The notes under the pieces: generated by a model
What the model saw: the letters and a program-made list of their open reading frames with translations, nothing else
Database searches by the model: none
What the model was told of the DNA's origin: nothing
Origin: a virus
Taxonomy: Duplodnaviria > Heunggongvirae > Uroviricota > Caudoviricetes
Strand: one strand, 5' to 3'
IMG/VR virus record: IMGVR_UViG_2671180637_000025
Coordinates: 1-40,163 of that record
DNA: 40,163 nucleotides
Shown: piece by piece, positions 2,097 through 34,575 of the stretch
Layout of the letters: every line of letters begins with the position of its first letter
Position numbering within the stretch: the stretch's first letter is position 1
Translations under genes and position numbers: made by a program

Positions 2097-2355
2097 AAAC
2101 CACCCCGCAACATCCTATGCCGCTATAGTCGCCACGGCGAAGGCCGTTACCTTTTGTGATACATTGGTCCCTGCGAACCGCGATCCTTGCACGCTCAACA
2201 TCACCAGAAGCAACATCCATACACTGAAGCCAAAGGTGGGCAGCAATGCGGAACTGCCCTTTTTTCTCTCTTTCAATCGCGCGTTTTTCGATCTCTATCG
2301 CCGCAGGAGTAACGGCAACAACCTTTGAAGGGCTGCGCATTGAAACCTTGTTCAT
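2089..2355 (-). CDS. Hypothetical protein (88 aa)
   Basis: ORF 2089..2388 trimmed to the internal ATG at 2355; overlaps the methyltransferase start by 8 nt, same operon. Confidence 0.4.
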   Translation of the reverse strand: MNKVSMRSPSKVVAVTPAAIEIEKRAIEREKKGQFRIAAHLWLQCMDVASGDVERARIAVRRDQCITKGNGLRRGDYSGIGCCGVVYD

Positions 2356-3827: not shown

Positions 3828-4727
3828 TTACTTCATTCTGAAGACGCGTTGTGTCGTTGTTGTTTTGAATTTTTCGAATAAATCAGGGTGTACTGACTGG
3901 AATAGCTTCTGGTCGAATCTGTTGCTGATCTGAGATTTCCATGTGCAGAGCGGCTTTCCGTCCAGTGTCAGGACTGAGTGCTCTTGCATGTACATCTTCA
4001 GCTTCTCTTCTGATATAGCTATTTCTTCTTCCAGTGATTTTCTGCGTGACTTCATGTCTCGTAGATCGTTGAATAGTGCGAGTGCCTTTCCGTCAGCCTC
4101 GATACTTGTCCCGGCATCTTTCTCAAACATCAGCGATACATCGCTTACGCTGGTAGCTTCCGGCGGGTTAAGATTTTTCACTCGGTCCCAGAAAGCGATT
4201 TCTTTTTCTAAGATCGCCTGGATAGTTTCTTCATCACGCTCAACCCGATAGATTCGGAAGTCGTCGCCACCGATAAGCACACCGAAAACGCATACCTGTT
4301 TGTTTGTAACCATCAACCCGTGCATGGCCTGGGCCGTGTAATGCACAGGAATTGCATCTGTCTGGATTTCTCCCCATTCTTTGGCTTTGAACGGACTAAC
4401 TGTTTTGATCTCAATGTTCTCGCCTGACGCTGCTTCTGCATCGATCTCAGCTGCAATAAAATCGTAATCACGGTGGATATAGCGGTTTCCGCGATGAACG
4501 ATTTCCATCCCCGTTTCCTCAGAAAGCAGGTCTATTACGTATGGCTCCATACGCTGGCCACGCGTGAAAACTTTCTGCTTGCTTGGGTCTACTGGTTTGA
4601 CACGTGGCTGGACCTTATCCAGATAAACCTCAAGCGGGGTGCGCCATGGGCTAATTCCAAGAATCCCTGCAACATCGCTTCCTCCGATGTATTTTGTTCT
4701 ATCCATGATTCCTGCGTTCCGCATCAT
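3828..4727 (-). CDS. YqaJ-type (lambda-exonuclease-like, PD-(D/E)XK) recombination exonuclease, partner of RecT
   Basis: 299 aa; N-terminal GGSDVAGILGISPWRTPLEVYL signature; directly upstream of recT; ATGA start/stop overlap with upstream ORF at 4724..4727. Confidence 0.85.
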   Translation of the reverse strand: MMRNAGIMDRTKYIGGSDVAGILGISPWRTPLEVYLDKVQPRVKPVDPSKQKVFTRGQRMEPYVIDLLSEETGMEIVHRGNRYIHRDYDFIAAEIDAEAASGENIEIKTVSPFKAKEWGEIQTDAIPVHYTAQAMHGLMVTNKQVCVFGVLIGGDDFRIYRVERDEETIQAILEKEIAFWDRVKNLNPPEATSVSDVSLMFEKDAGTSIEADGKALALFNDLRDMKSRRKSLEEEIAISEEKLKMYMQEHSVLTLDGKPLCTWKSQISNRFDQKLFQSVHPDLFEKFKTTTTQRVFRMK

Positions 4728-31570: not shown

Positions 31571-31744
31571 GTGTTTTTAATTATTTTGAGTGTGATAATT
31601 TCTGGTGGGTTGTTATTTATTGACCGCTACAAATATTTTCTTAACCCTCAGACTCAAGCTATTTGCTGGTTCATCTTTGTTGTGCAGGGAATAGTTCTTG
31701 TTGCAAGCCTTATTGAGGGGAGGCCTCTGATTTTTACTGGGTAA
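31571..31744 (+). CDS. Small membrane protein (57 aa, two predicted TM helices)
   Basis: Not in ORF track; GTG 31571 behind AAGGAAG; translation VFLIILSVIISGGLLFIDRYKYFLNPQTQAICWFIFVVQGIVLVASLIEGRPLIFTG; AT-rich. Confidence 0.35.
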   Translation: MFLIILSVIISGGLLFIDRYKYFLNPQTQAICWFIFVVQGIVLVASLIEGRPLIFTG

Positions 31745-31756
31745 ATAGGTGACTAC

Positions 31757-32047
31757 ATGCAAGCTATAGGATTCATTGTTTATATCGTCGTTGGTCTTTT
31801 TCAGTTGGCAGCAATTATGGCTGGGCTTGAATCATGGTGGGGATTGCACTGGATAATTGCAGCCCCCATTGCTTTCATCGTGAGCTATATTCCATTTGTT
31901 GGAGCGATTGTTGGTATGGTTGGTGCTGTGGATGTATGGCTGTGGGAGTGGTGGCAGGCTGGCCTTCTCTTCTTTGGTGGGATCATCTTTGCTATTGTCT
32001 GCGGTGGAATGTCATCATTTTTCGAACGGCTATCATTCAGAAAATGA
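31757..32047 (+). CDS. Small Trp-rich membrane protein (96 aa, about three TM helices)
   Basis: RBS AGGTGA; strongly hydrophobic; followed by an intrinsic terminator. Confidence 0.55.
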   Translation: MQAIGFIVYIVVGLFQLAAIMAGLESWWGLHWIIAAPIAFIVSYIPFVGAIVGMVGAVDVWLWEWWQAGLLFFGGIIFAIVCGGMSSFFERLSFRK

Positions 32048-32048
32048 A

Positions 32049-32062
32049 CGTGACATGTCACA
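32049..32062. repeat. Copy 3 of 14-bp motif TGTGACATGTCACG (reverse orientation)
   Basis: Plus strand reads CGTGACATGTCACA, the exact reverse complement of copies 1 and 2. Confidence 0.8.
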
Positions 32063-32087
32063 GGCCGCTTTCGCGGCCTTGTTTTTA
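32063..32087 (+). terminator. Intrinsic terminator after the membrane-protein gene
   Basis: Stem AGGCCGC / GCGGCCT with loop TTTC followed by TGTTTTT. Confidence 0.6.
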
Positions 32088-32247
32088 ACGAATGCCACCG
32101 CCGCCAGGGCGGGAATCCGCAGAACGCCCACCGCAGCGGGAGCCGTCAGCAGCAGTGTCGCTGTCGTGCTGACAACGACCGGCAAAGGCCTGAGTTGAAG
32201 CTACCAGAGACAACAAAACGAACAGTGCAGCAAATGCTTTTTTCATT
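32085..32247 (-). CDS. Possible small secreted peptide (53 aa)
   Basis: MKKAFAALFVLLSLVASTQAFA looks like a signal peptide; the mature part is short and another frame is also protein-like, so possibly frameshifted. Confidence 0.25.
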
Positions 32248-32315
32248 GTGAAATTTCCATCTATAAGCCACCTCAATGTGGCGTCAATGAGTGTAGCACT
32301 GACTTTTGTTTCGTC

Positions 32316-32340
32316 CACAAAAAAGCCCGCGGCGCGGGCT
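32316..32340 (-). terminator. Intrinsic terminator closing the two-gene minus-strand operon
   Basis: Stem AGCCCGC / GCGGGCT overlapping the stop codon, T-run on the minus strand. Confidence 0.55.
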
Positions 32341-32717
32341 TAATTAACTTCGAGGATAATAGAATCTTTAGACTTGAATCCCACTTTCCTCATGGCTGTA
32401 ATGACGTTTTGGATAATCCACGTTTTCCCAAACTCTCTTTCGTGTACAATGGCGCAAGGAAAATGAAGGGCGCTTTTGTTGCACTTTATGGTGAAAGTTG
32501 TACCTTCGGCAAAATCCAAAACAGTCTGCAGATGTGCAGATATAAACGATTTAAACACATCTTCAAGCTCAGCAAGAGTAATTGGCGGTTTGTTCCTCTC
32601 GTCGTTCAGGCGTTCATATGCTGCATGAAATGAAAAGTGAATTCTTGCCGCATCTTCTTGCAAGATCTCGTTAATCTCATCCTCAAGATCAATGAGTTGT
32701 TGTTCTGTTATAGACAT
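32340..32717 (-). CDS. Hypothetical protein (125 aa), distal gene of the island operon
   Basis: Overlaps the proximal gene by 10 nt; AT-rich; no recognisable motif. Confidence 0.5.
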   Translation of the reverse strand: MSITEQQLIDLEDEINEILQEDAARIHFSFHAAYERLNDERNKPPITLAELEDVFKSFISAHLQTVLDFAEGTTFTIKCNKSALHFPCAIVHEREFGKTWIIQNVITAMRKVGFKSKDSIILEVN

Positions 32718-33123: not shown

Positions 33124-33810
33124 TCAGAAGAACCATGCCTTGTCGTTGATGTACTCCGCGTGCGTCTGGATATCACGCAGGCATTTGCTCACACCGACGA
33201 TGTAGCAGAACATGGTGGTCAGTTCCGCCGCCGCGCCCGATACATCATGCCCGTCGTCCTGCAACTGGTTTAGCAGATTCATCAGCAGTGAGTTCTCCGT
33301 CAGGCCGAGAACACCAGACGGCGAGTGAATCAGGCTACGGTAGCCTGGCTTCAGTGGGGCACTGTAGGTTTTGTTCTCTATCTTCATTGCCTGCATCACT
33401 GCTGATGCTGTGGCGTTGGCTACCTGGTCGGCAACCATCTTTATGCGTTCTTCCTGCGGGAGCGAGTTTTTAATGTAACTTCCGGTGCGGCGGATCTGAG
33501 GAAGAACCTCACCTGTAACCCATTTACGAAAGCGGTAGGGGATAGTGCCTGGTGTCACTGCGTCGCGGCAGCGGAGGATCAGTGTGTAGAGGCCTGACTC
33601 GTTGATAATATTGGTTTCGCCTTGACGGCCTAAGTTAAATTTAGCCCTTTCATCATCATCAAGAGATTTTATTGACATAGTGGGGTTTGTCAGTTGAAGA
33701 GCTTTAATAACGTCTTTGGCAACAAACCAAGGATTTCCATCAATAACAATGGCTCGAATGGTTGCTTCTGATTCAAAATGAAAAACAGATGGGGTTACGT
33801 TAGCAGTCAT
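33124..33810 (-). CDS. Antirepressor, Bro-N-type N-terminal domain plus C-terminal domain shared with the neighbouring small ORF
   Basis: Start at ATG 33810 behind AGGTGA (track extension to 33963 runs through a terminator); Bro-N signature VFHFESEATIRAIVIDGNPWFVAKDV. Confidence 0.7.
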   Translation of the reverse strand: MTANVTPSVFHFESEATIRAIVIDGNPWFVAKDVIKALQLTNPTMSIKSLDDDERAKFNLGRQGETNIINESGLYTLILRCRDAVTPGTIPYRFRKWVTGEVLPQIRRTGSYIKNSLPQEERIKMVADQVANATASAVMQAMKIENKTYSAPLKPGYRSLIHSPSGVLGLTENSLLMNLLNQLQDDGHDVSGAAAELTTMFCYIVGVSKCLRDIQTHAEYINDKAWFF

Positions 33811-33962
33811 AGTGATCACCTTTGTAGTTAGGTTAATCACCACTACCGACGCCAATCGGTTGGTGGTGAACTGTGCAGGGTTGGCGTAACCGGCTACAAA
33901 GGACCCGGCGCACCTTTCGGTGCCCCCACACAGCCCACCATAGAATAGGTGCGCTTTACACA

Positions 33963-33982
33963 TAAAAAAACCGCTTATGCGG
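33963..33982 (-). terminator. Intrinsic terminator between the two antirepressor genes
   Basis: Stem CCGC / GCGG with loop ATAA followed by eight T on the minus strand. Confidence 0.55.
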
Positions 33983-34122: not shown

Positions 34123-34380
34123 TTATCTGGTTTGTTTTCGTAATTGTTCGGCACAATAGTCGAGATGTGTTTGCAGATCCCGCATAGACATCTGTGAGCT
34201 GGTGACGTAGTTAATCAGTGCAGTCAGTTCGGCAAGTGGGCCATCGACATTAAATCCATCCTTATCGAGATCCAGGAGTAATTTCATCAAGTGCGATCCC
34301 TCCACTAGTGATCTGACGCCTCCCGGCGTGTGAATCCTTTCGGTAAATCCGTCTTCCAGTGGATAGTGATACTGCTGCAT
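34123..34380 (-). CDS. Small antirepressor-domain protein (85 aa), SOS-regulated candidate
   Basis: Start at ATG 34380 behind GGAGAAG (track extension to 34503 would cross the LexA box and operator); by-eye ~40-45% identity to the C-terminal ~80 aa of the adjacent antirepressor. Confidence 0.55.
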   Translation of the reverse strand: MQQYHYPLEDGFTERIHTPGGVRSLVEGSHLMKLLLDLDKDGFNVDGPLAELTALINYVTSSQMSMRDLQTHLDYCAEQLRKQTR

Positions 34381-34399
34381 CTTATCTTCTCCATGCAAT

Positions 34400-34419
34400 A
34401 ACTGTATATTTATACAGTA
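34400..34419. promoter_or_regulatory. LexA (SOS) box AACTGTATATTTATACAGTA
   Basis: 19/20 match to the recalled consensus TACTGTATATATATACAGTA; 20 bp upstream of ATG 34380 on the minus strand. Confidence 0.8.
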
Positions 34420-34456
34420 GCAAATAATTTGTTTGCTATCCAGCACGTTTTGCAAA

Positions 34457-34471
34457 TTACCCGAAAGGTAA
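34457..34471. promoter_or_regulatory. Operator-like site TTACCCGAAAGGTAA in the divergent region between small antirepressor gene and tailspike
   Basis: Perfect TTACC-N5-GGTAA; GGTAA half-site also at 34517..34521. Confidence 0.5.
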
Positions 34472-34575
34472 TATCTGTTCGTATTTATAGGTTGTCTATC
34501 CATATGTGGTTTTTCGGGTAATAGAATAACCGGATATGCGGCGCAACGGGTGCTGCGACTATCTGGAGAATTAAC

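What the first reader, a model, noticed from the sequence alone, without database searches (positions are those of the whole stretch)
32085..32247. Short signal-peptide ORF with a second protein-like frame
A convincing signal peptide is followed by only ~31 residues, while a different frame over the same DNA encodes a hydrophobic helix-like stretch. This could be a frameshifted remnant of an exported or membrane protein, or a genuine secreted peptide.
Basis: seen in the sequence. Interest (0 to 1): 0.2.

Follow-up and report, generated by a model that had tools for sequence, protein, structure and literature searches.

The report
Small exported prophage peptide gene
This is a real, full-length 53-codon gene carried as a self-contained add-on in an E. 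coli prophage. It makes a 31-residue exported peptide of a widespread, already annotated family whose function nobody has studied, and the overlapping "second frame" is a by-product of G+C-rich codons.

Summary
The ORF is real. It encodes a 22-residue Sec-type signal peptide (MKK, 13-residue hydrophobic core, AFA|G) and a 31-residue mature peptide.

It is not a frameshift remnant. It matches phrog_14503 end to end (53/53). RefSeq annotates it at this length, and the exact protein occurs on at least 1000 public contigs as "transmembrane anchored protein".

Homologues of 45-55 aa occur in Enterobacterales, Rhizobiales, cyanobacteria, Vibrio, Bacteriovorax and Polyangiaceae. They share the core C-x4-D-x-A-x-DGSRCG-x-R-x4-RPGG, almost always at the C-terminus.

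Codon-level selection fits this frame (dN/dS 0.09). It rejects the overlapping 50-aa hydrophobic frame (3.9).

The gene sits in a 292-bp cassette between two terminator hairpins, with a predicted promoter. The cassette is in 422 of 5426 complete E. coli genomes. The gene itself also occurs on plasmids and in a lambdoid prophage, but not in phiV10.

No Pfam, NCBIfam, PDB, fold or literature match exists, and there is no conserved partner gene.

Best reading: a mobile add-on gene (moron) for a disulfide-looped periplasmic mini-protein. Its target is unknown.

The parts
32085..32246 (-). Coding sequence, 53 codons plus a TAA stop. It encodes the precursor of the small exported peptide (database name 'transmembrane anchored protein', phrog_14503).
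   Evidence: Searches give the ORF. One search gives the 53/53 match to phrog_14503 (E = 2e-40). Searches show the same 162-nt CDS annotated in ETEC H10407, TL-2011b (gp43) and phiv142-3 (Orf11). One search finds the exact protein on at least 1000 contigs. One search gives dN/dS 0.087 in this frame.
32181..32246 (-). Signal peptide, residues 1-22 (MKKAFAALFVLLSLVASTQAFA). The predicted signal peptidase I cut is after A22.
   Evidence: over 81 family members: position -3 is A, S, V or T in all 81; position -1 is A in 79; position +1 is G in 75. There are 1-2 Lys/Arg before an uncharged stretch of 19-22 residues. This part varies freely in sequence while the mature part does not.
32088..32180 (-). 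Mature peptide, residues 23-53 (GRCQHDSDTAADGSRCGGRSADSRPGGGGIR): 31 aa, 3060 Da, pI 8.1, hydrophilic.
32100..32174 (-). Conserved family core, C25 to G49 (CQHDSDTAADGSRCGGRSADSRPGG). C25 and C38 are invariant, which suggests one disulfide closing a 12-residue loop.
   Evidence: Searches list the invariant columns C25, A32, G35, S36, C38, R41, G48, G49. Searches show the residues kept through synonymous changes, including Ser TCN/AGY and Arg CGN/AGR codon switches.
32290..32317 (-). Predicted sigma-70 promoter: -35 TGGACG (32317..32312), 16-nt spacer, -10 TACACT (32295..32290). The inferred transcription start is near 32283.
   Evidence: One search gives the coordinates. In some searches, a TA...T hexamer lies at the same place in 11 of 14 Enterobacterales-type loci. 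The site is below the threshold of the consensus scan, so it is inferred, not shown.
32267..32282 (-). 5'-UTR hairpin GCCAC-ATTGAG-GTGGC at the predicted 5' end of the mRNA.
   Evidence: five consensus pairs, each kept through changes on both sides in at least one sequence; the hairpin forms in the minimum-free-energy fold, but the 54-nt segment as a whole folds no better than shuffles (z = -0.95). Its role as an mRNA stabiliser or regulator is a guess.
32254..32258 (-). Weak Shine-Dalgarno-like GGAAA, 7 nt upstream of the ATG.
   Evidence: A purine-rich GG(A/T)AA or AGGA element lies at a similar distance from the ATG in most of the other 13 loci.
32062..32079 (.). G+C-rich hairpin AGGCCGC-TTTC-GCGGCCT, starting 6 nt after the stop codon. 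It is a terminator shared with the convergent 96-aa membrane-protein gene (31757..32047, + strand). The T-run is on the + strand only.
   Evidence: One search reports the + strand terminator. In one search, a G+C-rich hairpin follows the stop closely in 13 of 14 Enterobacterales-type loci (not evident in L008), and L003, L004, L011 and L014 have a T-run on the ORF's own strand.
32323..32341 (-). Intrinsic terminator of the upstream 125-aa gene (32340..32717). It marks the upstream edge of the cassette.
   Evidence: In some searches, homology between prophages with different upstream genes breaks near 32340.
32049..32340 (-). The whole 292-bp cassette: promoter, 5' UTR, ORF and terminator.
   Evidence: at least 80% of it is present in 422 of 5426 complete E. 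coli genomes. The features annotated beside it differ between genomes (YafO toxin, DUF2335, DUF4760, hypothetical proteins); it is absent from phiV10.
32033..32185 (-). Overlapping 50-aa ORF in the +1 frame, the 'hydrophobic helix-like' frame. It is not a gene.
   Evidence: One search gives dN/dS 3.9 and one search gives 26-40% amino-acid identity. It reads through the stop codon and the terminator hairpin of the real gene. Its match to phrog_16238 shows only that gene callers have sometimes picked this frame.

Best explanation
This is an intact gene of a phiV10/epsilon15-like (Uetakevirus) E. coli prophage.

Shown here:
- The gene is full length and under strong purifying selection in this frame.
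- It belongs to a large family of 45-55-residue precursors. Each has a variable Sec-type signal peptide with a conserved A-x-A|G site. The mature part is about 27-31 residues with the core C-x4-D-x-A-x-DGSRCG-x-R-x4-RPGG.
- It lies in a 292-bp cassette between two terminator hairpins.
- That cassette recurs in E. coli prophages with different upstream neighbours. The gene itself also occurs in other mobile elements.

Inferred:
- The cassette is transcribed from its own sigma-70 promoter in the lysogen.
- The precursor is exported by Sec and cut by signal peptidase I after Ala22.
- The 3.06-kDa peptide is oxidised to a single C25-C38 disulfide and stays in the periplasm.

Guess:
- The family has no conserved partner gene.
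- The same module is fused to the predicted outer-face end of larger membrane proteins.
- So the free peptide most likely works alone as a small binding module. Its target would be a conserved envelope component or ion, giving the carrier cell envelope protection or exclusion.
For: Real gene:
- Full-length phrog_14503 match.
- Same CDS annotated in RefSeq and GenBank records.
- Exact protein on at least 1000 contigs.
- dN/dS 0.087 in this frame. Third-position entropy is 1.68 bits against 0.67 and 0.49 for positions 1 and 2, over 54 loci.

Family breadth: 57 loci in one-genome-per-species contigs, from Enterobacterales to Rhizobiales, cyanobacteria, Vibrio, Bacteriovorax and Polyangiaceae. There are 393 clusters at 50% identity and 717 at 90%.

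Signal peptide: positions -3, -1 and +1 are conserved in 81, 79 and 75 of 81 members.

Outer-face location: fusion proteins place the module between a signal peptide and a transmembrane helix that is followed by a Lys/Arg-rich stretch. Others place it after a C-terminal transmembrane helix.

Cassette and mobility:
- Terminators on both sides.
- Conserved -10 hexamer and 5' hairpin.
- Present in 422 of 5426 E. coli genomes with differing neighbours and absent from phiV10.
- Gene found in Klebsiella podophages.
- The only non-mobilisation gene in the partial gene table of a 3.36-kb MOBP plasmid.
- Lying between two IS26 copies on an IncFII/IncR plasmid.
- Between the Q antiterminator and the holin of a Rahnella lambdoid prophage.

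No partner gene: Pfam scan of 114 neighbours and all-against-all BLAST of neighbours.
Against: - No expression, export, cleavage or disulfide data exist for any member. No paper was found.
- In phiv142-3 the orthologue (Orf11) is not among the 14 serum-induced prophage genes of PMC7724020. That says nothing about its basal expression.
- The promoter scores 8 of 12 and fails the consensus scan.
- The hairpin after the stop has no T-run on the ORF's strand in this window.
- The AlphaFold model is only moderately confident (pLDDT 76) and mostly coil. It has no structural neighbour.
- The proposed binding or protective role rests on architecture and context only.
Confidence: 0.85

Rival explanations
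1. Frameshifted or truncated remnant of a larger exported or membrane protein. The hydrophobic stretch in the other frame would be the lost continuation.
For: A 50-aa hydrophobic ORF overlaps in the +1 frame and matches phrog_16238. One database entry (P0057) is a disrupted copy.
Against: - The ORF matches its family profile end to end.
- Homologues across phyla stop at the same point: 54 of 73 end one residue after the GG.
- The +1 frame has dN/dS 3.9 and 26-40% amino-acid identity. It also reads through the terminator hairpin.
- The exact +1 product is not in a collection of 15 billion proteins.
Confidence: 0.02
2. N-terminally anchored membrane protein. The hydrophobic segment would be an uncleaved signal-anchor, as the database name 'transmembrane anchored protein' implies, and would tether the 31-residue tail to the inner membrane.
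For: The name is used by NCBI and UniProt and PHROGs calls the family 'membrane associated protein'. The uncharged stretch before the core Cys is 19-22 residues in most members.
Against: The strictly hydrophobic core is only 13 residues. It is followed by a polar region and an A-x-A|G site that is among the best conserved features of the precursor (79 of 81 Ala at -1, 75 of 81 Gly at +1). The rest of the N-terminal segment drifts freely. That is the pattern of a cleaved signal peptide. The name has no experimental source that I could find.
Confidence: 0.1
3. Released bacteriocin-like toxin or phage communication peptide (arbitrium-like) that acts on other cells.
For: It is small, exported, contains cysteines and is carried on phages and small plasmids.
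Against: - No immunity, receptor, transporter or modification gene is conserved next to it in 57 loci.
- A Sec signal delivers the peptide only to the periplasm of a diderm cell. From my own knowledge, a 3-kDa peptide is above the porin size limit.
- Near-invariance of 25 residues across phyla is unlike strain-specific signals or toxins.
Confidence: 0.05
4. Small lipoprotein, such as a colicin-lysis-protein-like release factor or a Cor/Llp-type exclusion lipoprotein.
For: The precursor size (45-55 aa) and a Cys shortly after the signal peptide resemble bacteriocin release proteins. One distant member gave a Lysis_col hit at E = 0.11. A few cyanobacterial members have a lipobox-like ...TSC.
Against: In this window the Cys is preceded by A-G-R, and by A-G-N in most members. 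That does not fit the lipobox [LVI][ASTVI][GAS]C, known to me from the literature. There is no Pfam match to Lysis_col for the window protein. The Cys is paired with a second invariant Cys.
Confidence: 0.02
5. Not a protein at all. The conserved element would be an RNA or a DNA site, or the antisense 'shadow' frame would be the gene.
For: The antisense frame that shares third codon positions shows an equally low dN/dS (0.096). It appears as a recurrent ORF in 9 loci.
Against: - That symmetry is expected for the shadow frame.
- The shadow frame is only 26 codons long here (32092..32172) and has stops in 3 of 54 loci.
- Its amino-acid identity is lower than that of the sense frame (0.64 against 0.75).
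- Ser TCN/AGY and Arg CGN/AGR switches preserve the sense residues.
- No Rfam family reaches its threshold.
Confidence: 0.01

Closest known systems
PHROG phrog_14503 ('membrane associated protein', moron category), which is the NCBI/UniProt 'transmembrane anchored protein' family (e.g. TL-2011b gp43 YP_007001994.1, ETEC H10407 WP_000708858.1, UniProt A0A0A1A7U0_ECOLX)
   Same: It is a member. The match covers 53 of 53 profile positions and the identical sequence is already deposited. Length, signal peptide and core motif are the same.
   Different: Nothing differs. However, the family has only a name, with no Pfam or NCBIfam model, no structure and no paper. The name probably misdescribes a cleaved signal peptide.
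Phage morons: autonomous promoter-gene-terminator insertions expressed from the prophage, as described for lambdoid phages such as HK97/HK022, e.g. lambda bor and lom (my own knowledge)
   Same: It is a discrete cassette between two terminators, present or absent among otherwise related phages. Its G+C content differs from the surroundings (55-57% against 49%). In a Rahnella lambdoid prophage it lies between the Q antiterminator and the lysis genes, which by my own knowledge is a classical moron site. It encodes an envelope-directed product.
   Different: Expression from the prophage was not tested. The promoter is only a moderate consensus match. Bor is a lipoprotein and Lom an outer-membrane barrel, both much larger and unrelated in sequence.
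Small periplasmic phage proteins that protect the lysogen or infected cell, e.g. T4 Spackle (an inhibitor of the incoming tail lysozyme)
   Same: A Sec signal peptide, a small soluble periplasmic product, phage-borne, and no partner gene needed.
   Different: There is no sequence relationship. One distant family member gave a T4_Spackle hit at E = 0.065, far below the threshold. By my own knowledge Spackle is about three times larger. No exclusion phenotype is known here. The family is also common in non-phage chromosomal settings in Rhizobiales and cyanobacteria.
Excalibur extracellular calcium-binding domain (Pfam PF05901, motif DxDxDGxxCE)
   Same: A short, Cys-containing, Asp/Gly-rich extracytoplasmic module with a ...D-G-x-x-C... 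element. It occurs both free and fused to other domains.
   Different: There is no Pfam match at E <= 1. The motif here is D-x-A-x-D-G-S-R-C-G, not DxDxDGxxCE. Calcium binding was not tested. The resemblance is recalled from memory and is only a lead.

Membership tests
phrog_14503 / 'transmembrane anchored protein' family | Full-length profile match | tested here: met
   E = 2.3e-40, residues 1-53 against profile positions 1-53 of 53.
phrog_14503 / 'transmembrane anchored protein' family | Core motif C-x4-D-x-A-x-DGSRCG-x-R-x4-RPGG at or near the C-terminus, with two Cys | tested here: met
   Searches give the invariant columns. In one search, all 73 members that fit the core search pattern have exactly two Cys. 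The 8 left out of that count differ only at the D30 position.
phrog_14503 / 'transmembrane anchored protein' family | Precursor of about 45-55 residues with an N-terminal hydrophobic signal | tested here: met
Sec / signal peptidase I secretory precursors | Positively charged n-region, hydrophobic h-region of about 10-15 residues, small residues at -3 and -1 | tested here: met
   MKK, the 13-residue AFAALFVLLSLVA (mean hydropathy 2.7), and A-F-A. Across 81 members, -3 is A/S/V/T in all 81 and -1 is Ala in 79.
Sec / signal peptidase I secretory precursors | Demonstrated export and cleavage | not testable with these tools
   This needs PhoA fusions or mass spectrometry of periplasmic extract.
Phage moron | Present or absent between otherwise collinear genes of related phages | tested here: met
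   phiV10 lacks it at the same place. TL-2011b, phiv142-3, HEMP4, EC.W1-9, ZX5 and Klebsiella podophages carry it.
Phage moron | Own terminator | tested here: met
   a hairpin starts 6 nt after the stop, and a similar hairpin follows the stop in 13 of 14 related loci. Here its T-run is on the opposite strand only.
Phage moron | Own promoter | tested here: inconclusive
   TGGACG-16-TACACT matches 8 of 12 positions and was not reported by the scan. The -10 position is conserved in 11 of 14 loci.
Phage moron | Expressed from the repressed prophage | not testable with these tools
   PMC7724020 lists only the serum-induced genes of phiv142-3. Orf11 is not among them.
Bacterial lipoproteins, including colicin lysis proteins (PF02402) | Lipobox [LVI][ASTVI][GAS]C at the end of the signal peptide | tested here: not met
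   The sequence before C25 is A-G-R here and A-G-N in 56 of 81 members. There is no PF02402 match for the window protein.
Excalibur (PF05901) | Pfam profile match and the DxDxDGxxCE motif | tested here: not met
   no match at E <= 1. The motif differs.
Peptide signalling or bacteriocin loci (arbitrium AimP/AimR, microcin plus immunity, RiPP clusters) | A conserved adjacent receptor, immunity, transporter or modifying-enzyme gene | tested here: not met
   no neighbour family recurs outside the shared phage backbone.
Known anti-phage defence systems (PADLOC) | Profile match | tested here: not met
   no match for the peptide. The only hit among the four flanking ORFs scanned is a chance-level Cas8b match for the 125-aa protein (E = 0.009, 13 bits).

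The most novel reading that the evidence does not exclude
The 25-residue core (C-x4-D-x-A-x-DGSRCG-x-R-x4-RPGG) may define an unrecognised, ancient extracytoplasmic mini-domain of diderm bacteria. It occurs free, in tandem, and fused to the outer-face ends of membrane proteins. Phages and plasmids would spread it as a stand-alone cassette because the free module binds a universally conserved envelope component or ion. That binding would change envelope behaviour, for example by blocking superinfection or incoming envelope-targeting toxins.
Probability: 0.25. Interest if true: 0.55.

Novelty: already known. Interest (0 to 1): 0.3.

Why it matters
For this window the result is mostly tidying up. 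The ORF is a correctly sized, already annotated gene. The 'second frame' should not be annotated, although a PHROG family (phrog_16238) matches that out-of-frame ORF.

The wider point is modest but real:
- A 27-31-residue exported, disulfide-looped peptide is conserved almost residue for residue from E. coli prophages to rhizobia and cyanobacteria.
- It moves on phages and plasmids.
- It has no Pfam model, structure or publication.

Small exported proteins are under-studied, and this one is cheap to synthesise and test. A defined target would explain why about 8% of complete E. coli genomes carry the cassette.

Tried and rejected
- Pfam, NCBIfam and PADLOC scans of the peptide gave nothing meaningful. 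The weak MarB and HxsA3 NCBIfam hits are far below their thresholds and fall mostly on the signal peptide.
- A Pfam scan of 36 diverse members and of 10 fusion proteins found no model covering the module.
- A profile search of PDB sequences found nothing.
- Four literature searches on the family found nothing: the database name with 'phage', the name alone, accession numbers and phrog id, and the motif string. One search was swamped by the term 'prophage'.
- The phiv142-3 paper (found) tests the neighbouring orf10 but not the orthologue Orf11.
- Guilt by association failed. Neighbours are unrelated across loci, and two Rap1a immunity-protein neighbours were too few to build on.
- Cluster look-ups of the fusion proteins returned only 'hypothetical protein'.
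- An Rfam scan of the region gave only a sub-threshold Leu_leader hit on the upstream terminator.
- I first read TTGACG-16-TATAGA (32287..32260) as the promoter. I dropped it because TTGACG is not seen in the related loci and it would leave about 7 nt of leader without the Shine-Dalgarno-like element.
- I considered a lasso-peptide reading (Gly1...Asp8 of the mature peptide). I rejected it because the N-terminal spacing varies and no maturation genes are present.

Full report
**Observation**

The minus strand carries an ORF with ATG at 32246 and a TAA stop at 32087..32085, which is 53 codons.

The product is MKKAFAALFVLLSLVASTQAFA|GRCQHDSDTAADGSRCGGRSADSRPGGGGIR. Residues 1-22 look like a Sec signal peptide: MKK, a 13-residue hydrophobic core with mean hydropathy 2.7, and A-F-A at -3 to -1. 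The remaining 31 residues are hydrophilic (3060 Da, pI 8.1).

Two other ORFs overlap it. One is a 50-aa ORF in the +1 frame (32033..32185, minus strand), which is hydrophobic and rich in Ala, Val and Thr. The other is a 100-aa ORF on the plus strand (31896..32198).

**Which frame is real**

I extracted the conserved 20-codon core from 54 homologous loci (the window plus 53 genomes) and compared the frames.

- Column entropy by codon position is 0.67, 0.49 and 1.68 bits for positions 1, 2 and 3.
- Serine and arginine residues are kept through TCN/AGY and CGN/AGR codon switches.
- Among the window and 13 related gammaproteobacterial loci (12 Enterobacterales and one Tolumonas MAG), dN/dS is 0.087 in the ORF frame.
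- In the +1 frame (the 50-aa hydrophobic ORF), dN/dS is 3.9 and amino-acid identity is 26-40%.
- The plus-strand 100-aa frame has stop codons in 27 of 54 loci.
- The antisense frame that shares third codon positions has a similarly low ratio (0.096), as expected for a shadow frame. Here it is only 26 codons long, it has stops in 3 loci, and it is less conserved as protein than the sense frame (0.64 against 0.75).

The alternative frames stay open because the mature-peptide DNA is 69% G+C in a window of 49%. The +1 ORF also runs through the stop codon and the terminator hairpin. Its match to phrog_16238 means only that gene callers have sometimes chosen that frame. Its exact product is absent from a collection of 15 billion proteins.

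**Not a remnant**

- The ORF matches phrog_14503 ('membrane associated protein', moron category) over 53 of 53 positions, E = 2e-40.
- A 162-nt CDS is annotated at the corresponding place in ETEC H10407 (WP_000708858.1), phage TL-2011b (gp43, 'putative transmembrane anchored protein') and phage phiv142-3 (Orf11).
- The exact protein is on at least 1000 contigs, for example as UniProt A0A0A1A7U0.
- Homologues of 50-55 aa occur in Escherichia, Shigella, Klebsiella, Citrobacter, Cronobacter, Franconibacter, Salmonella, Pectobacterium and Dickeya.
- Of 73 members, 54 end one residue after the conserved GG and 15 end four residues after it.
- In a Pantoea locus (L010) the short form ends at a stop codon, and reading through it gives ...RPGGK*VR*, which resembles the longer tail. 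Both lengths therefore look like natural variants.

**The family is much wider than prophages of enterics**

A scan of one genome per species found 57 loci. They include Rahnella, Rouxiella, Pantoea and Tolumonas, and many Rhizobiales: Mesorhizobium, Rhizobium, Agrobacterium, Bradyrhizobium, Devosia, Methylobacterium, Microvirga, Kaistia and Aureimonas. They also include cyanobacteria (Dolichospermum, Anabaena, Nostoc, Synechococcales), Vibrio, Bacteriovorax, Rhodoferax and Polyangiaceae.

An exhaustive profile search found 393 clusters at 50% identity. A word-indexed search found 717 clusters at 90%.

The shared core is C-x4-D-[TR]-A-[AS]-D-G-S-R-C-G-x-R-[SA]-[AS]-x-x-R-P-G-G-x, normally at the very C-terminus. 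C25, A32, G35, S36, C38, R41, G48 and G49 are invariant. The signal peptide drifts freely in sequence, but its cleavage site does not. Over 81 members, position -3 is A, S, V or T in all 81, position -1 is Ala in 79, and position +1 is Gly in 75. That is the pattern of a cleaved secretory precursor, not of a membrane anchor, so the database name is probably a misnomer.

**The module in larger proteins**

- Signal peptide, module, transmembrane helix, then a cytoplasmic region of about 150 residues that begins with a Lys/Arg-rich stretch (P0073, P0094, P0120 and others).
- Signal peptide, module, a proline-rich linker, then another domain (P0087; P0100 from Leclercia).
- At the C-terminus, after a transmembrane helix (P0103).
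- In tandem (P0078, P0083).
- A more distant four-Cys version, CPCPY...NGSRCGGRSAYS.PGG..P.CY (P0123, P0177, P0178; P0202 also has an SH3_3 domain).

These arrangements place the module outside the cytoplasm, which fits two invariant cysteines forming a disulfide. P0071 is a possible exception.

No Pfam model covers the module. There is no NCBIfam model and no PDB sequence relative. An AlphaFold2 model from an 81-sequence alignment has pLDDT 76. It shows the signal-peptide helix, then a mostly irregular mature part with short bridges and turns. It has no structural neighbour. No paper mentions the family or its motif.

**Local anatomy**

The window is a phiV10/epsilon15-like (Uetakevirus) prophage. 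On the plus strand, the structural operon ends with the 815-aa virion protein, a 57-aa ORF and a 96-aa membrane protein (31757..32047), followed by a terminator at 32062..32079.

Converging on that terminator from the minus strand are an anti-repressor (Bro-N/Ant) gene, a 72-aa ORF and a 125-aa ORF. The 125-aa ORF ends in its own terminator (32341..32323). The peptide gene follows.

Between that terminator and the ATG lie three elements:
- a candidate promoter (TGGACG, 16 nt, TACACT; 32317..32290);
- a 5-bp hairpin, GCCAC-N6-GTGGC (32282..32267), which would sit at the 5' end of the mRNA;
- a weak GGAAA ribosome-binding element.

In the 13 related loci, a TA...T hexamer is at the same place in 11 of 14 sequences. 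The hairpin is kept through compensatory changes, for example GCCGC/GCGGC, TTGCC/GGCAA and CGCCGC/GGCGG. A G+C-rich hairpin follows the stop closely in 13 of the 14 loci (not evident in L008), and four of them have a T-run on the ORF's strand.

The promoter is below the threshold of the consensus scan. The 54-nt leader as a whole folds no better than shuffled sequence (z = -0.95). These elements are therefore inferred, not shown.

**Mobility**

- The 292-bp cassette (32049..32340) is at least 80% present in 422 of 5426 complete E. coli genomes. The features annotated beside it differ: YafO toxin, DUF2335, DUF4760 or hypothetical proteins.
- phiV10 itself lacks the cassette at the same position.
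- The gene also occurs in Klebsiella podophages.
- It is the only non-mobilisation gene listed on a 3.36-kb MOBP plasmid of K. pneumoniae, where it has a different promoter region. That plasmid gene table is incomplete.
- It lies between two IS26 copies on an IncFII/IncR plasmid.
- It lies between the Q antiterminator and the holin of a Rahnella lambdoid prophage.
- Outside the shared phage backbone, no neighbouring gene family recurs.

So it is an autonomous accessory gene without a partner. It fits the description of a phage moron, apart from the untested promoter and expression.

**Mechanism**

Shown here: the gene is intact, it is under purifying selection in this frame, it belongs to the family, it has a conserved cleavable-signal pattern, and it is modular and mobile.

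Inferred from established Sec, signal peptidase I and DsbA biology: the precursor is exported and cut after Ala22. The 31-residue product is oxidised to one C25-C38 disulfide and stays in the periplasm.

Guess: there is no partner gene, the core is nearly invariant across phyla, and the same module is attached to outer-face ends of membrane proteins. The free peptide therefore probably acts alone as a small binding module for a conserved envelope component or ion, to the benefit of the carrier cell (envelope protection or exclusion).

I put about 0.85 on the shown and inferred parts together, and about 0.25-0.3 on the functional guess.

**Rivals**

- Frameshift remnant: 0.02.
- Uncleaved membrane anchor: 0.1.
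- Released toxin or signal peptide: 0.05.
- Lipoprotein: 0.02.
- Not a protein-coding gene: 0.01.

The reasons are given under each rival explanation.

**Related experimental literature**

Only one paper touches this region. In phiv142-3 the neighbouring gene orf10 is strongly induced in chicken serum, and its deletion lowers serum resistance. The orthologue of this peptide (Orf11) is not among the 14 induced genes and was not mutated (PMC7724020). This window has a different gene (125 aa) at the orf10 position.

**Verdict**

The 'remnant' reading is rejected and the 'genuine exported peptide' reading is supported.

The gene is already known as a database entry but has never been characterised. 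Interest is low to moderate. The case is ordinary for this window. The family is a reasonable target for small-protein work, because it is so widely conserved, so mobile and so easy to synthesise.

Noticed in passing
window 32050..32061: A perfect 12-bp palindrome, GTGACATGTCAC, abuts the shared terminator hairpin, between the stop of the 96-aa membrane-protein gene and the peptide gene. The same palindrome follows the hairpin in the Kluyvera (L006), Klebsiella (L007) and Buttiauxella (L015) loci. Its function is unknown; it could be a protein-binding site or an extension of the terminator stem.
   Followed up: partly
window 32267..32282 (minus strand): A 5'-UTR hairpin, GCCAC-N6-GTGGC, is kept through compensatory changes in related loci from other genera. 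It may stabilise the mRNA 5' end or regulate translation. It was not tested beyond RNAalifold and a single fold.
   Followed up: partly
window 32033..32185 (minus strand) and PHROG phrog_16238: The out-of-frame 50-aa ORF matches phrog_16238 (E = 4e-25). That PHROG family therefore appears to include mis-called overlapping ORFs of this gene. The antisense shadow ORF likewise recurs in 9 loci.
   Followed up: yes
proteins P0073, P0094, P0095, P0115, P0120, P0125, P0138, P0142, P0161, P0163, P0192, P0201: This is a separate family of 220-290-aa proteins from metagenomes. Each has a signal peptide, the same Cys-loop module, the stretch 'RNPDTDW', a transmembrane helix, and a conserved cytoplasmic domain of about 150 aa (...GGN.YDAA..Y...) with no Pfam match. 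The layout resembles that of a transmembrane sensor.
   Followed up: partly
L142 (K. pneumoniae plasmid NZ_CP138754.1, 3360 bp), 2104..2265: A tiny MOBP mobilisable plasmid lists this peptide gene as its only non-mobilisation gene. The plasmid gene table is incomplete. Similar contigs of about 3 kb carry close variants (P0033).
   Followed up: partly
window 31571..31744 and 31757..32047 (plus strand): Two small hydrophobic ORFs (57 aa and 96 aa) close the structural operon. The 96-aa protein matches phrog_3075 (E = 6e-52), which has no known function, and has a weak sub-threshold resemblance to a holin family (Phage_holin_5_2, E = 0.04). phiV10 has a 2-TM 'putative integral membrane protein' at this position.
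   Followed up: partly
window 33124..33963 and 34123..34503 (minus strand): The Bro-N/Ant anti-repressor and the 126-aa ORF next to it share the same C-terminal module (phrog_450 and phrog_15539). This suggests a partial duplication or domain shuffling in the accessory region before the tail fibre gene.
   Followed up: no
L141 (phage phiv142-3) 5793..5951, upstream of the orthologue Orf11: In phiv142-3 the gene just upstream (orf10, 52 aa) is the second most serum-induced of the listed prophage genes (log2 4.12; orf41 is 4.56). It contributes to serum resistance and colonisation (PMC7724020). This window has an unrelated 125-aa gene there, which shows rapid turnover of small accessory genes at this spot.
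   Followed up: partly
L010 (Pantoea) 4001..4162: The homologue ends ...RPGGK, then a stop, then VR and a second stop. A nonsense change may have converted the 53-aa form into the 50-aa form. The last residues therefore seem dispensable.
   Followed up: no
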